Below, in pieces: positions 1,190 to 12,802 of a stretch of 64,000 nucleotides of DNA. The DNA is from Camelus ferus (lineage: Eukaryota). The stretch covers positions 26,848,001 to 26,912,000 of the forward strand of contig NC_045696.1 of assembly GCF_009834535.1 (NCBI RefSeq), written 5' to 3'. Position 1 is the first letter of the stretch; each line of letters starts with the position of its first letter. The notes beneath the pieces are model-generated. The model was not told the DNA's origin. It saw only the letters and a program-made list of their open reading frames with translations, and searched no databases. Position numbers and translations under genes: made by a program.

Positions 1190-4100
1190 CAATGTGTTAA
1201 GAAGCAAGAATCTACAGAAAAGAGAGAATCACAATTGGAAATGCAATAACTACAATGAATAGCAAAAGAACAAAGAAAAATGTAAAAGAGGACATCAAAA
1301 TCATAAAGTAAGGGAGAGGGGAGAAAGAAAATGTATTTTTTTTTCTGCTTGGAATGTGTCTGAGGTTATATGATTACCAGTCTAAAGAAGTAGATAAAGT
1401 AATGGTAGTAACATACTTGAGAAACAGGGTAACCACAAATCAAAAACATACAATAGAATCACAGAAACCTAAAAGAAAAGAAACTAAGCATAATACAAAA
1501 GAAAATCATCTAGCCAAAAAAGGAACAACAAGAAAAAAAAAAGGAACAAAGAAGAAACACAAAATTAACTGGAATACAGAGTTTAAAATGGCAATAAGCA
1601 CATACCTATCTACAATTACAGTAAATGTCACTGGACTAAATGTTCCAATCACAAGACACAGAGTAGCAGATTGGATAGTAAAATAAGAGCCTACAACATG
1701 CTGCCTACAAAAGACTAACTTTAGGGTGAAGGACACACATAGATTGAAAGTGAGAGAATAGAAAAAGATATTTCATGCATATGGAAATGACAAGAAAGTG
1801 GGGGTAGCAATACTCATATCAGACAAAATAGACTTTAAAACAAAGGCCATAAAGAAAGATAAAGAATGAGACTATAGAATGATAAAAAGGATATTATGCT
1901 TGTTAATATATATGCACCCAACATAGGAGCACCTAACTACATAAAAGAAATGCTAACAGACATGAAGGGAGATATTAATGGGACTACAATAATAGGAGAC
2001 TTTAACTTCCCACTAATATCATTGGACAGGTCTTTCAGACAGAAAATCAATAAGGCAATGGAGATACAAAATGACACAACAGAATGTTAGACTTAATTAA
2101 TATTTTCAGGAAATTACATCCAAAATAACCTCAGAATATACATTCTTTTCAAGAGCACATGGAACATTCTCTGGGATAGACCACAAAATTAGACACAATA
2201 CAAGCCTCAACAAATTTAAAAGGATAGAAATTATTTCAAGCATCTTTTTTAACTATAATGGCATGAAACGAGAAATCAACCACAGAAAGAGAAATCAGAA
2301 ACAAATTATTGCATGGAGACTAAACAACATGCAACTAAAAACCCAATGTGTCAATGATGAGACCAAAGAGGAAATTAAAAAATACCTTGAGACAAATGAC
2401 AATGAATACACAGCCACACAAAATCTATGGGATGCAGCAAAAGCAGTCCTAAGAGGGAAGTTCATAGCAAGACAGGCATTCCTCAAAAACCAAGAAAAAT
2501 AAACAACCTAACCTACTACTTAAAAGAATTAGAAGAAAAGGACAAACAATACCTCAAGTCAATGGAAGGAAAGAAATAATAAAGATCAGGGAGGAAATAA
2601 AATAGAGATTAAAAAATTATAGAAAATATCAATAAAACCAAGAGCTGGTTTTTTGAAAAAACAAACCAAATTGACAAACCTCTGGCCAGGCTCACCAAGA
2701 AGAAAAGAGACAGAACCTAAATAAACAAAAATAAGATATCAAAGAGGATAAATAACAACCAATACTGCAGAAATACAAAAGATCATAAGCTAAAAATACT
2801 GTGAACAGTTCATATATCATTAAACTGGAAAACCTAGAAGAAATGGACAGATTTCTAGAAACATACAGTCCACCAAATCTGAATGAAGAAGAAATAGATC
2901 ATTCGAACAGACCAATCATTAGAAGTAAACTAGAATCAGTAATAATAAAAAAAAAGAAAACAAAACAAAACAAGCAAACAAACAAAAAAGCCTCTCTGAA
3001 AACAAAAGTCTGGAACCAGATGGATTCACTGGGGAATTCTACCAAATATACAAAGAAGAACTTACACCAATCCTTCTCAAACTCTTCCAAAAGATTGCAA
3101 ATGAGGGAACACTTCCATACTTATTCTATGAAGCCACCATTACCCTGATACTAAAACCAGATAAAGACATTACAAAAAAGGAAACTTACAGGCCAATATC
3201 TCTGATGAATATAGATGCAGAATTTCTCAAGAAAATATCAGCAAACAGAATTCAACAACACATAAAAAAGATTATACACTATGATCAAATTGGATTTATC
3301 CCAGGTACACAACATATAGCAAATCAATCAACATGATATACCATATCAACAAAAGAAAGGACGAAAATCACATGATCATCTCAATAGATTCAAAAAAGCA
3401 TTTGATAAAATTCAACATCCATTCATGATAAAAACTCTTACCAAAATAGGGGACATATCTCAACATAACCAAAGCTATTTATGACAAACCCAAAGCCAAC
3501 GTAACAGTCCACAATGAAAAGTTGAAATCCTTCCCACTAAAATATGGAACAAGACAAAGATGCCCACTCTCACCACTTCCATTCAATATAGTATTGGAAG
3601 TCCTAGTCATAGCAATCAGGCACAAAAAAGAAATAAAAAGGATACAAATTGGAAGAGAAGAGGTAAAATTATCACTATATACAGATGACATGGTATTATA
3701 AATAGAAAATCTAACGGCTCCACAGAAAAACTACTAGAGCTTACAAATGAACTGAGCAAGGTAGCAGAATACAAGAGTAACATACAGTAATCAAGTTGCA
3801 TTTCTTTACACTAACAATGGCATATCAGAAAAGGAAAGTAAAGAAACAATCTCTTTTAAAATTGTATCAAAAAAATAAAATACTTAGGAATTAACCTGAC
3901 CAAGGAGGTGAAAGACTTATAAGCAGAGAACTATAAAACACTGATTAAGGAAATTAAAGATAATTTAAAGAAATAAAAAGATATCCCATGTTCCTGGATT
4001 GGAAGAATTAATATTATTAAAATGGCCATATTACCCAATGCAATCTATAGATTTAATGCGATTCCTACCAAAGTACCCAGGATATTTTTCACAGAACTAG

Positions 4101-5738
4101 AACAAATAATCCTAAAATTTATATGGAATCACACACACACACAAAACAAAAAACAAAAAAACCCAGAATTGCCAAAGCAATATTGAAGAAAAAGAACGAA
4201 GCTGGAATCATAACCCTCACAGATTTCAGACAGTACTACACAGCTACATTAATCAAAACACCATGGTATTGGCACAAAAACAGACATATGAATCAATGGA
4301 ACAGAATAGAAAGCCCAGAAATAAACCCACACACCTACAGTCAATTAATCTTTGACAAAGGAGGCAAGAATATACAATGGAGAAGAGACAGTCTCTTCAG
4401 CAAGTGGTTTTGGGAAAGCTCAACAGTCACATGTAAATCAATGTAGTTAGCACACTCCCTCACACCATACACAAAAATAAACTCAAAATGGTTTAAAGAC
4501 TTAAACATAAGACAGGTAACAGTAAACCTCCTAAAAGAGAACCTAGGAAAACATTCTCTGACATACATTGCAGCAATATTCTCCTAGGGCAGTCTGCCAA
4601 GGCAACAGAAATACAAGCAAAAATAAGCAAATGGAACCTAATTAAACTTACAAGCTTTTGCACAGCAAAGAAAACTATAAACAAAACAAAAAGACAACTT
4701 ACAAAATGGGAGAAAATATTTGCAAATGATGTGACTGGCAAGGGCTTAATTTCCAGAATAGCTCACACAACTCAGAAACAGAAAAATTAACAATCCAATC
4801 CAAAAATGGGCAAAAGACCTAAAAAACAATTCTCCAATGAAGACATACAGATGGCCAAATGGCACCTGAAAAAATGCTCAATATTACTAATTATCAGAGA
4901 AATGCAAATCAAAACTTCAGTGAGATATCACCTCATACCAATCAGAATGGTCATCATTCAAAAATCCACAAAAGATAAATACTGGAGAAGATGTGGAGAA
5001 AAGGGAACACTCCTACACTGCTGGTGGGAATGTAGTTTGATGCAGCCACTGTGGAAAACAGTATGGAGATTCCTTAAAAAAGTAAAAATAGAGTTATCAT
5101 ATGATCCAGCAATCCCACTCCAGGACATATATCTGGAGGGAACTCTAATTCAAAAGGATACATGTACCCCAATATTCATAGCAGCACTATTTACAATAGT
5201 CAAGACATGGAAGCAACCTAAATGTCCATTAACAGATGGCTGGATAAAGAAGCTGTGGTGAATATATACAATGACATATTACTCAGCCATGAAGAAGAAT
5301 GAAATAATGCCATTTGCAGCAACATGAATATACCTAGAGATGATCATACTAAATGAAGTAAGCCAGAAAGAGGAAGAAAAATACCATATGATATCACTTA
5401 TATGTGAAATCTTAAAAAAATGAACTTATTTACAAGTCAGAAACATACTCACAGACATAGAAAACAAATTTATGATTACCAGAGGGGAAAGGGGTAGGGA
5501 GAGATAAATTGGGAGTTTGGGATTTGCCAATACTAACTACTGTATATAAAATAGATAAACAACAAGGTCCTACTGTTTAGCACAGGGAACTATATTCAGT
5601 ATCTTATAATAACCTATAATGAAAAAGAATATGAATAGAAATGCACACATATGTATAACTTAATCACTATATTATACACCAGAAAGTAACACAACATTGT
5701 AAATTGATCATATTACAATCAAACATTTTTAAAAAGAA
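1190..5738 (+). mobile_element. 5'-truncated LINE-1: inter-ORF region, complete but disrupted ORF2 (ATG at 1588, end ~5415) and 3' UTR
   Basis: ORF2 start MAISTYLSTITVNVTGLN (EN domain), then NIYAPN, GDFN, WDAAKAVLRGKFIA, WYWHKNR and C-terminal [14 protein letters not shown]. Many stops and frameshifts. 3' UTR ends 'aacacaacattgtaaattgatcatattacaat'. Confidence 0.95.
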
Positions 5739-9329: not shown

Positions 9330-10485
9330 TTTACAACAAAGAAGCCAAGAATATACAATAGGGAAAAAAAAGTATCATCAATAAATGTTGGAAAAACTGG
9401 AGAGCCACATGCAAAAGAATGAAACTAGACCACTATCTTAACACTATACATAAAAATTAACTCAAAGTGGATTAAAGCTTTTAAAGTAAGACCTGAAACC
9501 ATAAACTAGAAGAAAACATATGTGGTAAGCTCTTGCCATCAGTCTTGACAATAATTTTTTGGATTTGACAACAAAAGCAAAGATAAACAAGTGAAAACTA
9601 CATCAACATACAAAGCTTCTACACAGCAAAGGAAACCATGTAAAAAGTGAAAAGGCGACTTACTAAATGGGAGAAAATATTTGCAAATCATATGTCTGAT
9701 AAAAGGTTAATATCCAAAATATATAAATACAACATACAACTTAATTGCAAAAAAACAAACAATCTGATTTTAAAATGGAAGAAGTGTTTGAATAGATATT
9801 TTTCCAAAGAGGACATACATACAGATGGCCAATAGGCACATTAGAAGTTGCTCAACATCACTAATCATCAGGAAAATGCATATCAAAATCACAGTGCTGT
9901 ATCACCTCACACCTGTTGGAATGGCTATGATCAAAAAGACAAACTATAAGTGTTGGCAAAGATGTGGAGAAAAGGGAACCCTCATGCACTATTGGGAACG
10001 TGTGGTGCAGCCACTATGGAAAACATTGTGGAGATTCCTCAAAAAATTAAAAATAGAACTACCATATAATCTAGAAATCCCACTTTTGGATTTTGGGTAT
10101 TTATCCAAATAAAATGAAAACACAAACTCAAAAAGATACATGTGCCCCCATGATCACTGCAGCATTATTTACAATAGCTAAGATAGGGAAACAACCTAAG
10201 TGTCCATCATGGAATGAATGGATAAAAAAGATGTGATATTTAGAGACACATACATATATAATTCAACCATAAAAAAGTATGAAATCTTGCCATTTACAAC
10301 AATACAGGTGGACTTGAAGGGCATTGTGCTAAATGAAATAATCAGATAGAGAAAGACAAATACCATATAATCTCACTTGTATGTGAAATCCAGAAAAAAA
10401 AAAAACCCCTGAATTTATAGATAAGGAGAACAGATGGGTGGTTTCCAGAGGATAGGGGTAGTCAGAGGGTGAAATGGGTAAATGG
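9330..10485 (+). mobile_element. LINE-1 fragment: 3' part of ORF2 and start of the 3' UTR, 3' end missing
   Basis: KWEKIFAN and [15 protein letters not shown] motifs in ORFs 9647-9835 and 9825-10112. The 3' UTR breaks off at ~10485. Confidence 0.9.
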
Positions 10486-10648
10486 ATCTCCTATGAAGGG
10501 GAAATTTACATTTATAAAGGAAATTTCCATTTGTAAAAATCTCCATTTTTAGCCCTCTTGAGTACCAAGAAGAGAGAGACGACTAAATCATAAGAAACTC
10601 TGAAAAGAGAAGGCACAGACTTAAATCTGCATAACAAACCTTATTCTT

Positions 10649-11551
10649 TTTCTTTTCTAACAGATTTTTTTAAATTTTTTTTTATTGAGTTATAGTCATT
10701 TTACAATGTTGTGTCAAATTCCAGTGTAGAGCACGATTTTTCAGTTATACATGAACATACATACATTCATTGTCACATTCTCTTTCGCAGTGAGCCACCA
10801 CAAGATCTTGTATATACTTCCCTGTGCTACACAGTACAATGTTGTTTATTCTACATTTTGAAATCCCAGTCCCTTCCCACCCTCCATTCCCCTGGCAACC
10901 ACAAGTTTGTAGTTTATGTCTAAGAGTCTGTTTCTTTTTTTTATTTATGGTTTTTGTTGTTGTTGTTGTTGTTGTTTTTAGATTCTGCACATGAGTGATC
11001 TCATATGGTATTTTTCTTTCTCTCTCTGGCTTACTTCACTTAGAATGACACTCTCCAGGAACATCCATACTGCTGCAAATGGTGTTATGTTGTTGGTTTT
11101 TATGGCTGAATAGTATTTCATTGTATAAATACACCACATCTTCTTTATCCAGTCATCTGTTGACAGACATCTAGGCCACTTCCATGTCTTGGCTACCGTA
11201 AATACTGCTGCCATGAACACTGGGGTGCAGATATCATTTTGAAGTAGTGTTCCCTCCAGATATATGCCCAGGAGCAGGATCCCTGGGTCATATGATAAGT
11301 CTATTCCTAGTCTCCTGAGGAATCTCCATGCTGTTCTCCACATTGGCTGCACCAAACTGCATTCCCACCAGCAGTGTAGGAGGGCTCCCGCATCTCCACA
11401 GCCCCTCCAGCATCTGTCATCCATGGACCTTTGAATGATGGCCATCTGACTTGTGTGAGGTGATACTCCACCGTACCCCTGACCTGCATTTCTCTGACAA
11501 CTACTGATATTGAGCATTTTCTCACGTGCCCATTGATCACCTGTATTTCTT
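10649..11551 (-). mobile_element. Young L1 insertion, 3' arm (ORF2 C-terminus, 3' UTR, T-rich tail); A>G hypermutated at ~11165-11545
   Basis: ORF 10978-11517 ([18 protein letters not shown]) and T-tract at 10645-10683. Left TSD aacaaaccttattctt at 10633-10648. Confidence 0.95.
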
Positions 11552-12549
11552 TAAACTAACGATGAATCAACAGAAAAAGAAAGTAAAGAAACAATCCCCT
11601 TTAAAATAGCACCCAAAGTAATAAAATACCTAGGAATAAATCTAACCAAGGAGGTGAAAGAATTATACACAGAAAACTATAAACCATTGATGAAGGAAAT
11701 TAAAGAAGACTTTAAAAAATGGAAAGATATCCCATGCTCTTGGATTGGAAGAATGAATATTGTTAAAATGGTCACACTGCCCATGGCAATCTACAGATGT
11801 AATGCAATCCCTATCAAATTACCCAGGACATATTTCACAGAACTAGAACAAGTGGAACCACAAAAGACCTAGAATTGACAAAGCATTACTGAAGAAAAAG
11901 AAAGAGGCTGGAGGAATAACTCTCCCAGACTTCAGATGATACTACAGAGCTACAGTCATCAAGACAGCATGGTATTGGTACAAAAACAGACATATGGATC
12001 AATGGAACAGAACAGAGAGCCCAGAAATGAACCCACAAACTTTTGGTCAACTAATCTTCGACAAAGGAGCCAAGAATATACAATGGAATAAAGACAGTCT
12101 CTTCAGCGAATGGTGTTGGAAGAGCTGGAGAGCAGCATGTGGGTGAGTGAGGCTGGAACACTCCTGTACATCATGCACAGAAATAAACTCAAAATAGGTC
12201 AAAGACTTAGGCACAGGACAGGATACAGTAAACCTCCGAGAGGAGGATATGGGCAAAACATTATCTGACATACATCTCAAAAATGCTCTCCTGGGGCAGT
12301 CTACTCAGGCAATGGAAATAAGGGCAAGAATTAACAGATGGGACCTGGTTGAACTTATGGGCTTCTGCACAGCAAAGGAAACCATGGATAGAGCAAAATG
12401 ACAGGCCTACAGAATGGGAGAAAATTTTTGCAAATGAAACTGACAAAGGCTTGATCTCCAAAATATTTAAGCAGCTCATACGACTTAATAAGAAAAAAAC
12501 AGGCAGCCCGGTCCGGGAATGGGCAGGGGACCTGGACAGGCAATTCTCC
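11552..12549 (+). mobile_element. Same L1 insertion, inverted 5' arm (twin priming); A>G hypermutated at ~12108-12540
   Basis: ORF2 [12 protein letters not shown] motif. The arm ends '...caattctcc', essentially where the minus arm begins in L1 coordinates. Right TSD aacaaaccttactctt at 12550-12565. Confidence 0.95.
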
Positions 12550-12802
12550 AACAAACCTTACTCTTGTTTATCATACTTTTGTTGGTCACCTCCCTATAAC
12601 TGGCCTCCCCTGTACCCTTTTCTCTTTTGTCTTTAGGTGAAGATGGTATTTATGCTGAATACCCCTTAGTATCTCTCTTATTTAAATGAGATATACATGT
12701 TAATTAACTTCCATTTGTTTTTCTCTTATTAATGTGCTTAAGCTAAGGGGTTGCAGCTGAGAATGTAGAAGTATAGATGAAAAAGATATTTTTCCTCTAC
12801 AA

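What the first reader, a model, noticed from the sequence alone, without database searches (positions are those of the whole stretch)
11165..12545. Germline-fixed copy of an apparently ADAR-hyperedited L1 RNA (A>G on the L1-sense strand in both inverted arms)
Seen, against the in-window L1 at 4380-5240. Plus arm (~12108-12540): atgtaaatcaatg>atgtgggtgagtg, ttaaacataag>ttaggcacagg, cctaattaaacttacaagc>cctggttgaacttatgggc, ccaatccaaaaatgggcaaaagacctaaa>ccggtccgggaatgggcaggggacctgga. Minus arm (~11165-11545, L1-sense): taattatcagagaaatgcaaatcaaaa>tagttgtcagagaaatgcaggtcaggg, cacaaaa>catggat, tttacaatag>tttacggtag. The changes read A>G on the top strand in one arm and T>C in the other, so they follow L1 polarity rather than the chromosome strand. 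They form one ~0.8 kb tract in RNA coordinates, with a spared patch at ~12410-12495. Equally A-rich parts of the same insertion (11552-12100, 10685-11150) are spared. Some new CpGs have since decayed (caa>cgg>tgg). Established: clustered A>I, read as G, is the ADAR signature on dsRNA, whereas APOBEC3 gives sense-strand G>A. Inference: the L1 RNA was partly duplexed with antisense or fold-back L1, hyperedited, then reverse-transcribed, writing RNA editing into the genome. The inversion point lies mid-tract, suggesting the duplex or inosines promoted twin priming. Alternatively the source element was already edited.
Basis: partly seen in the sequence, partly recalled or inferred. Interest (0 to 1): 0.88.

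Follow-up and report, generated by a model that had tools for sequence, protein, structure and literature searches.

The report
ADAR-edited L1 copy fixed in genome
One copy of the L1 jumping gene in this mammal's genome carries 86 A-to-G changes packed into a single 0.8-kb stretch, the mark of an RNA-editing enzyme, which indicates that a heavily edited RNA was copied back into inherited DNA.

Summary
Window 10649-12549 is one 5'-inverted L1 insertion between 16-bp target-site duplications (15/16 identical). Its two arms abut in L1 coordinates, with 2-4 nt missing.

I compared it with the column majority of 28 other copies from the same genome. In an ~830-nt stretch of L1 coordinates (12108-12549 plus 11551-11164), 86 of 351 A are G on the L1-sense strand. 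The other transitions are rare: T>C 3/161, G>A 6/141, C>T 12/182. The upstream 548 nt has A>G at only 2/243. A second reference set, chosen on the unedited part, gives 86/349.

Read on the window + strand, the changes are A>G in one arm and T>C in the other. None of 43 control copies comes close: at most 26 A>G against 101-103.

The flanking bases match the published ADAR preference. Editing is 11% after a 5' G and 39% before a 3' G. Five of the 11 CpGs that editing created have since decayed to TpG. No sibling copy exists in the 2.09-Gb assembly.

Best reading (about 0.8): ADAR hyperedited an L1 RNA that was then reverse-transcribed by twin priming. The proposed link between editing and the inversion is untested. 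Read-level confirmation failed. Nine literature searches found no earlier report for L1.

The parts
10633..10648 (.). Left target-site duplication (16 nt)
   Evidence: Read directly. Identical to 12550-12565 at 15 of 16 positions.
10649..11551 (-). 3' arm of the L1 insertion. L1 sense is on the minus strand, and the A-rich tail end lies at about 10649-10690.
   Evidence: Aligns over 867-894 of 901 nt to 25 of 29 genomic L1 copies (4 shorter), colinear with the plus arm. Column map.
11552..12549 (+). Inverted 5' arm of the same L1, with L1 sense on the plus strand. The next two bases, 'aa' at 12550-12551, could belong to either L1 or the duplication (2-nt microhomology).
   Evidence: The plus arm ends at alignment column 1090 and the minus arm starts at column 1095, so only 2-4 nt of L1 are missing between the arms.
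12108..12539 (+). Hyperedited tract, part in the plus arm: 50 of 205 A read G
11164..11541 (-). Hyperedited tract, part in the minus arm: 36 of 144 A read G on the L1-sense strand (T>C on the window + strand)
12406..12501 (+). Spared patch inside the tract: 0 of 42 A changed
   Evidence: P about 1e-6.
11552..12107 (+). Unedited 5' segment of the inserted RNA: A>G at 2 of 243 (set A) or 3 of 244 (set B)
10667..11163 (-). 3' segment with a low, ambiguous A>G level (13-14 of 203-210 A)
12550..12565 (.). Right target-site duplication (16 nt)

Best explanation
An L1 RNA became double-stranded over about 0.8 kb of its ORF2 3' third. The most likely partner is an antisense L1 transcript. An ADAR-type adenosine deaminase then converted about a quarter of the adenosines in that segment to inosine.

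The same RNA molecule was used for target-primed reverse transcription with twin priming. One cDNA started at the poly(A) tail. A second started from the other target end, 2-4 nt upstream of where the first stopped. The reverse transcriptase read each inosine as G, so both arms carry G on the L1-sense strand. The insertion entered the germline and later lost about half of the new CpGs.

Shown here:
- the structure of the insertion;
- the purity, polarity, extent and base context of the A>G tract;
- that the alleles are unique to this copy.

Inferred:
- the enzyme;
- the duplex partner;
- that editing happened in the very RNA that was inserted.
For: 1. Purity. Of 90 changed A in the tract, 86 are A>G, 3 A>T and 1 A>C. 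A>G is 86/351, against T>C 3/161 and G>A 6/141. An independent reference set gives the same result, 86/349. Majority-free pairwise counts against 43 natural copies give copy-A/query-G 81-95 against copy-G/query-A 7-17.

2. Polarity follows L1, not the chromosome. The plus arm has A>G 50 and T>C 2 on the + strand. The minus arm has T>C 36 and A>G 1.

3. It is one tract in RNA coordinates. It runs across the inversion junction at equal density, 24% and 25%. The 5' edge is sharp, with no A>G between 11938 and 12108. The two arms are made by separate priming events, so a feature placed by RNA position points to the template and not to the polymerase run.

4. Base context. The edited fraction by 5' base is A 0.375, T 0.24, C 0.12, G 0.11. 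By 3' base it is G 0.39, A 0.26, T 0.20, C 0.16. Porath et al. 2014 (PMC4365171, passages read) report G depleted upstream and enriched downstream of hyper-editing sites.

5. Controls. In the tract columns, 28 copies have 2-11 A>G. Across 43 distinct copies the maximum is 11 in any 300 columns, against 39 here.

6. Age. Five of 11 new CpGs have decayed to TpG, and the duplications match at 15/16.

7. Precedent. A>G hypermutation of up to about 50% of A has been attributed to ADARs in Rous-associated virus, avian leukosis virus, HTLV-2 and STLV-3 (review PMC12925331, passages read).
Against: - No duplex partner was identified. An ordinary copy of this L1 (3.4 kb) has no internal inverted repeat longer than 23 nt, so a second RNA has to be assumed.
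- Orecchini et al. (PMC5224506, passages read) found no editing in more than 2.5 kb of ectopic L1 RNA and concluded that ADAR1 restricts L1 without editing.
- The preference for a 5' A or T also fits the WA motif recalled for DNA polymerase eta.
- The apparent depletion of a 5' C is partly confounded, because an edited CA that became CG can decay back to CA.
- This is a single locus.
- The 0.49-0.58 word shares in 14 DNA-type runs do not show which words were held.
- The 96-nt spared patch has no explanation.
Confidence: 0.8

Rival explanations
1. The same editing chemistry, one generation earlier. A source L1 already carried the G alleles in its DNA, and this copy merely inherited them.
For: The sequence of one copy cannot exclude this. 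Source elements are often lost or never fixed.
Against: No sibling or source was found. The best other matches to three heavily edited stretches are 83%, 83% and 84-85% identical (40 of 838, 511 and 2039 candidates scored). A 42-nt edited word with up to 3 mismatches occurs once in 2.09 Gb, and that match is the window itself. A source with about 86 changes in ORF2 would probably be crippled for mobilising itself (inference).
Confidence: 0.1
2. An error-prone DNA polymerase made the sense strand over this stretch during second-strand synthesis or repair. DNA polymerase eta is the candidate: it puts G opposite template T at WA sites (property recalled).
For: It would also follow L1 polarity in both arms. 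The edited fraction is highest after a 5' A or T.
Against: The purity is wrong for such a polymerase. A>G is 86, against A>T 3 and A>C 1, and the other bases are near background. A 24% change at one base is far above what I recall for such enzymes. The 3' G enrichment belongs to the ADAR pattern. The tract is continuous in RNA coordinates, but in the DNA it lies in two pieces on opposite strands, separated by 556 unedited bases.
Confidence: 0.04
3. The L1 reverse transcriptase misincorporated C opposite A, for example under a skewed nucleotide pool.
For: It gives sense-strand A>G in both arms.
Against: A pool effect should act along each whole cDNA. Here the first cDNA is clean or nearly clean at its start and dense at its end, and the second is dense at its start and clean at its end. 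The pattern therefore follows template position. The 96-nt spared patch and the neighbour preference are not expected either.
Confidence: 0.03
4. A DNA-level process acted after insertion: GC-biased gene conversion, transcription-linked strand asymmetry, or ADAR acting on the DNA strand of RNA:DNA hybrids.
For: ADARs can edit deoxyadenosine in hybrids in vitro (Zheng et al. 2017, as cited in PMC12925331).
Against: Conversion would raise T>C as much as A>G, but the counts are 3/161 against 86/351. A chromosomal strand bias cannot flip exactly at the inversion junction. Editing of the cDNA strand in the L1 hybrid would give sense T>C, which is not seen.
Confidence: 0.02
5. An assembly or sequencing artefact.
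Against: The changes stop at sharp borders inside one repeat copy and follow L1 polarity. Five show later CpG decay. Fourteen DNA-type runs, under three organism codes and from eight studies, hold 0.49-0.58 of the 241 sampled words of a stretch that is 89% insertion. That last point is weak support, because the words held were not located.
Confidence: 0.01

Closest known systems
ADAR-type A>G hypermutation recorded in DNA copies of retroviruses (Rous-associated virus, avian leukosis virus, HTLV-2, STLV-3)
   Same: An RNA template was edited in a double-stranded segment, up to about half of the A were replaced by G, and the change was fixed by reverse transcription (review PMC12925331, passages read).
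   Different: [quoted passage not shown] The copy is in the germline and old. The tract spans a twin-priming inversion. About 25% of A are changed.
APOBEC3-edited endogenous retroviruses and retrotransposons in vertebrate genomes (Knisbacher and Levanon, PMC4866542; Zaranek et al., PMC2873906)
   Same: A host deaminase leaves a one-type, strand-specific mismatch cluster in a retroelement copy that still integrated (passages read).
   Different: Those clusters are G>A, from C>U on the cDNA. Here G>A is 6/141 and the change is A>G on the RNA-sense strand. The substrate is therefore RNA before copying, not cDNA after it.
Hyper-edited repeat RNAs in transcriptomes (Porath et al. 2014, PMC4365171)
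   Same: Dense A>G clusters with G depleted 5' and enriched 3'.
   Different: Those are differences between RNA and DNA that are not inherited. Here the G are in the genome itself.
Twin-primed (5'-inverted) L1 insertions (Ostertag and Kazazian 2001; recalled, not read here)
   Same: Two arms in opposite orientation that abut in L1 coordinates, a poly(A) end, flanking duplications and microhomology at the internal priming site.
   Different: Nothing structural. The extra feature is the edited tract across the junction.

Membership tests
ADAR hyperediting footprint | One mismatch type (A>G) dominates | tested here: met
   86 of the 90 changes at A are A>G, and 86 of all 122 changes in the tract are A>G. 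Set B gives the same.
ADAR hyperediting footprint | All changes lie on one RNA strand | tested here: met
   Sense A>G 86 against sense T>C 3. The polarity flips with the arms on the chromosome.
ADAR hyperediting footprint | Changes are clustered in a bounded tract | tested here: met
   Tract 86/351 against the 5' part 2/243, p = 3e-18. There are 39 in the densest 300 columns, against at most 11 in 43 controls.
ADAR hyperediting footprint | 5' G depleted and 3' G enriched | tested here: met
   5' G: 6 of 55 edited (odds ratio 0.32, p = 0.01). 3' G: 22 of 57 edited (odds ratio 2.2, p = 0.012). The motif is from PMC4365171.
ADAR hyperediting footprint | A long double-stranded RNA substrate | tested here: inconclusive
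   No partner can be recovered from a fossil. L1 itself has no internal complement longer than 23 nt, so an antisense RNA has to be assumed.
ADAR hyperediting footprint | Dependence on ADAR | not testable with these tools
   Needs a cell assay.
Twin-primed L1 insertion | Two inverted arms that are adjacent in L1 coordinates | tested here: met
   The arms end and start 4 alignment columns apart. They are colinear in 28 of the 29 copies (the L028 segment came out empty).
Twin-primed L1 insertion | Target-site duplications flank the whole insertion, and the A-rich tail lies next to one of them | tested here: met
   16 nt, 15/16 identical, at 10633-10648 and 12550-12565. The tail is at 10649-10690.
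Twin-primed L1 insertion | Endonuclease target resembling TTTT/AA (consensus recalled) | tested here: inconclusive
   The inferred nick lies in tctt/gt: T-rich on one side, no AA on the other.
APOBEC3 DNA editing | Sense-strand G>A clusters | tested here: not met
   G>A is 6 of 141 in the tract.
GC-biased gene conversion | A>G and T>C raised alike, together with A>C and T>G | tested here: not met
   T>C 3/161, A>C 1, T>G 2, against A>G 86/351.

The most novel reading that the evidence does not exclude
This copy would be a germline fossil of an L1 sense-antisense duplex. It would show that the L1 reverse transcriptase can copy and integrate a template carrying at least 86 inosines. ADAR would then be a recurrent, heritable mutator of L1 alongside APOBEC3.

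The boldest version adds a causal link. The inversion junction sits at 53% of the tract because the inosine-rich duplex, or its cleavage, set the point where the first cDNA stopped and the second primed. Editing would then steer L1 towards dead, inverted copies.
Probability: 0.12. Interest if true: 0.85.

Novelty: new member of a known kind. Interest (0 to 1): 0.62.

Why it matters
- It is sequence-level evidence that A-to-I RNA editing can be written into inherited DNA through L1. A 2016 review called such roles 'logical to assume' but, speaking of Alu, not yet determined (PMC4982230). A cell-culture study found no editing in L1 RNA (PMC5224506).
- It implies that long L1 duplex RNA existed in cells that contribute to the germline, and that the edited RNA still completed retrotransposition.
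- The tract preserves the length (about 0.8 kb) and an internal gap of an ancient duplex.
- There is a practical consequence for dating. The edited arm is only 86-88% identical to its nearest relatives, while the unedited part differs from their majority by about 2%. Divergence-based dating or subfamily assignment would badly mis-age such copies.
- It also defines a simple screen for finding more such copies: sense-strand A>G clusters compared with the other 11 substitution types.

Tried and rejected
- More copies for a frequency estimate. The control set therefore stays at 43 distinct copies, and no rate of hyperedited L1 can be given.
- Siblings. Three stretch searches and one 42-nt word search found none. 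Only 40 candidates per stretch search were scored.
- Internal fold-back of L1 as the duplex: rejected, because the longest self-complement is 23 nt.
- A duplex with the in-window old L1 at 3797-5735 or 9336-10406: rejected by reasoning. Editing of a transcript of this locus cannot change its DNA, and neither transcript direction would give sense-strand A>G in both arms.
- Earlier notes of this scan: three look-ups returned nothing relevant.
- Literature. Nine searches and passages of 9 papers gave no report of a germline L1 copy with an ADAR footprint. Carmi et al. 2011 and Hajjar and Linial 1995 are not held, and most subscription journals are not searched. A prior report may therefore exist.

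Full report
**Structure**

The window is part of contig C1 of a 2.09-Gb, 2043-contig mammalian assembly. Bases 10649-12549 are one L1 insertion.

- The left arm (10649-11551) is L1 antisense on the + strand. Its A-rich tail end lies at about 10649-10690.
- The right arm (11552-12549) is L1 sense on the + strand.
- In 29 other copies fetched from the same genome, the two arms match adjacent, colinear L1 segments. In L002, for example, they match 1511-2526 and then 2531-3398.
- In the multiple alignment the plus arm ends at column 1090 and the minus arm starts at column 1095. At most 2-4 nt of L1 are missing at the junction.
- The whole insertion is flanked by a 16-nt duplication, at 10633-10648 and 12550-12565, identical at 15 of 16 positions.
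- The two bases 'aa' at 12550-12551 fit both L1 and the target.

This is the anatomy of a twin-primed, 5'-inverted L1 insertion. The name and model are recalled from Ostertag and Kazazian 2001, which I did not read here.

**The tract**

I aligned 28 of the 29 copies. L028 was dropped because its segment came out empty. I added the two arms and used the column majority (at least 60%) as the reference state.

Over 1845 scored sites there are 101 A>G and 69 other changes. In bins of 100 sites along L1:

- The first five bins (11552-12056) have 0-1 A>G each.
- The next nine bins (12057 through the junction to 11137) have 6-15 each.
- Every other substitution type stays at 0-4 per bin.

For the tract (12100-12549 plus 11551-11160, 835 sites), one search gives:

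| Change | Count |
|---|---|
| A>G | 86 of 351 |
| T>C | 3 of 161 |
| G>A | 6 of 141 |
| C>T | 12 of 182 |
| C>G | 5 |
| other transversions | 10 |

The 5' part has A>G at 2/243 plus 11 other changes. The 3' part has A>G at 13/203 plus 22 other changes.

The first reference copies had been chosen by similarity to the edited sequence. I therefore fetched a second set using only the unedited 11552-12107 as the query. L048 was dropped as partial, leaving 28 of 29. The result is the same: 86/349 in the tract, 3/244 upstream and 14/210 downstream.

Pairwise counts against 43 distinct natural copies need no majority at all. In the tract, copy-A/query-G is 81-95 (median 89) and copy-G/query-A is 7-17 (median 11). 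In the 5' part the medians are 5 and 3.

**Controls**

- In the tract columns the 28 copies of the first set carry 2-11 A>G each.
- Over the whole 1.9 kb, 43 distinct copies carry 8-26 A>G, and at most 11 in any 300 columns. This copy carries 101-103, and 39 in the densest 300 columns.
- At 50 of the 86 sites none of the 28 copies has G. At 27 sites one copy has G, and at 9 sites two to seven copies do. The G alleles are therefore not a subfamily state.

**Polarity and continuity**

Read on the window + strand, the plus-arm part of the tract has A>G 50 and T>C 2. The minus-arm part has T>C 36 and A>G 1. The bias therefore follows L1 and not the chromosome.

The density is the same on both sides of the junction, 50/205 and 36/144. 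The 5' border is sharp, with no A>G between 11938 and 12108.

In twin priming the two arms come from two separate cDNA runs on one RNA. Here the first run is clean or nearly clean at its start and dense at its end, while the second is dense at its start and clean at its end. A feature that is continuous in RNA coordinates but split between two polymerase runs is best placed on the RNA template itself. This is inference.

**Base context**

Using ancestral neighbours inside the tract:

| Neighbour | A | T | C | G |
|---|---|---|---|---|
| 5' base, edited of total | 57/152 | 12/50 | 11/90 | 6/55 |
| 3' base, edited of total | 39/152 | 14/71 | 11/67 | 22/57 |

The 5' distribution differs from uniform at chi-square p = 7e-6, and G against non-G gives p = 0.01. 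For the 3' base, G against non-G gives p = 0.012.

Porath et al. [quoted passage not shown]

Two caveats apply:

- An edited CA becomes CG and can decay back to CA, so the low value after C is partly an artefact.
- A preference for a 5' A or T is also what I recall for DNA polymerase eta.

**Age**

Five C>T changes in the tract are at CA>CG>TG (12358, 11423, 11258, 11178, 11165). They come from the 11 edited A that had a 5' C. The changes are therefore old germline DNA and not a recent artefact.

The unedited 5' part differs from the majority at 13 of 543 sites.

Fourteen DNA-type runs, under three organism codes and from eight studies, hold 0.49-0.58 of 241 sampled 31-mers of 10560-12700. I therefore cannot say which words they hold. 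This is weak support for presence in several animals and says nothing at the level of alleles.

**Uniqueness**

Searches of the own genome with three heavily edited stretches gave best non-self identities of 83%, 83% and 84-85%. That is the level of unedited copies. Forty candidates were scored in each search, out of 838, 511 and 2039.

A 42-nt edited word, allowing 3 mismatches, occurs once in the genome. That match is the window itself, and the reversed control pattern matches nowhere.

**Mechanism and rivals**

The best reading is ADAR-type A-to-I hyperediting of a duplexed segment of L1 RNA, followed by reverse transcription that reads I as G. I put this at about 0.8.

The partner strand is unknown. 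L1 has no internal complement longer than 23 nt, so an antisense L1 RNA is the simplest assumption. The 96-nt patch with 0 of 42 A changed (P about 1e-6) suggests a gap or bulge in that duplex, but it remains unexplained.

The rivals, and why each ranks lower:

- **Inheritance from an already edited source.** No sibling was found, and it would be the same chemistry anyway.
- **An error-prone DNA polymerase.** A>G 86 against A>T 3 and A>C 1 is too pure, and the 3' G preference does not fit.
- **Reverse-transcriptase misincorporation.** The pattern follows template position and not the polymerase run.
- **GC-biased conversion.** T>C is 3/161.
- **Chromosomal strand asymmetry.** The polarity flips at the junction.
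- **ADAR acting on the cDNA of the hybrid.** That would give sense T>C.
- **Artefact.** CpG decay, sharp borders and L1 polarity all argue against it.

**Against the best reading**

Orecchini et al. saw no editing in more than 2.5 kb of ectopic L1 RNA and concluded that the restriction is editing-independent (PMC5224506). That was a cell-culture assay without a supplied antisense partner, so it does not exclude rare events.

**The inversion link**

The junction lies 442 nt into an approximately 832-nt tract. The tract makes up about 44% of the inserted RNA, so one junction inside it is not evidence that editing promoted the inversion. The idea stays open.

**Comparison with what is known**

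- ADAR-type A>G hypermutation fixed by reverse transcription is described for avian retroviruses and for HTLV-2 and STLV-3 (PMC12925331).
- Deaminase fossils in genomic retroelements are described for APOBEC3, as G>A (PMC4866542; PMC2873906).
- A 2016 review states that roles of ADAR editing in Alu evolution and in suppressing retrotransposition by mutation had not been determined (PMC4982230).
- A 2021 review of ADAR in virus evolution contains none of the words retrotransposon, retroelement, endogenous retrovirus or provirus (PMC8586724).

Nine full-text searches found no report of a germline L1 copy with this footprint. The library lacks most subscription journals, and two key papers are not held.

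I therefore file this as a new member of a known kind: the known ADAR-then-reverse-transcription route, seen here in a germline L1.

**Verdict**

The main interpretation is supported at about 0.8. The editing-inversion link is untested. Interest is 0.62.

Noticed in passing
window 12130, 12145, 11504, 11476, 11205: There are five C>G transversions inside the tract against one (11755) in the two flanks together. All five are at a C that follows an A (ACA or ACT becoming AGA, AGT or GGT). This could be chance, alleles of the source lineage, or a side effect of copying an inosine-rich template.
   Followed up: partly
window 12406-12501: A 96-nt patch in the middle of the tract has 0 of 42 A changed (P about 1e-6). 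It may mark a gap or bulge in the ancient duplex. I found no explanation.
   Followed up: partly
window 10667-11159: The 3' fifth of the L1 has 13-14 A>G, against a control median of 4 and a maximum of 12-13. G>A is also high there (9 of 91-92). This is either a low-density continuation of the editing or just a variable 3' region.
   Followed up: partly
window 9336-10406 and 3797-5735: Two older, more diverged L1 pieces (66-76% identical to the insertion) lie upstream, both sense on the + strand. The nearer one ends about 230 nt before the insertion site.
   Followed up: no
window 10560-12700: Three RNA-seq runs hold 0.25-0.30 of the sampled words of this stretch, and three more hold 0.12-0.17. 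The locus may be transcribed, for example as part of an intron.
   Followed up: no
L052 and L053 (G000:C19:24472600-24476168 and 24385226-24388794): Two L1 loci about 87 kb apart on one contig have nearly the same substitution counts (A>G 11 and 10, G>A 18 and 20 with 9 in one 300-column window each). This suggests a segmental duplication of a copy with a mild G>A cluster.
   Followed up: no
window 11552-12549 against 28-43 genomic copies: The edited arm is only 86-88% identical to its nearest relatives, while its unedited part differs from their majority by about 2%. Divergence-based ageing of this copy would be strongly inflated.
   Followed up: yes
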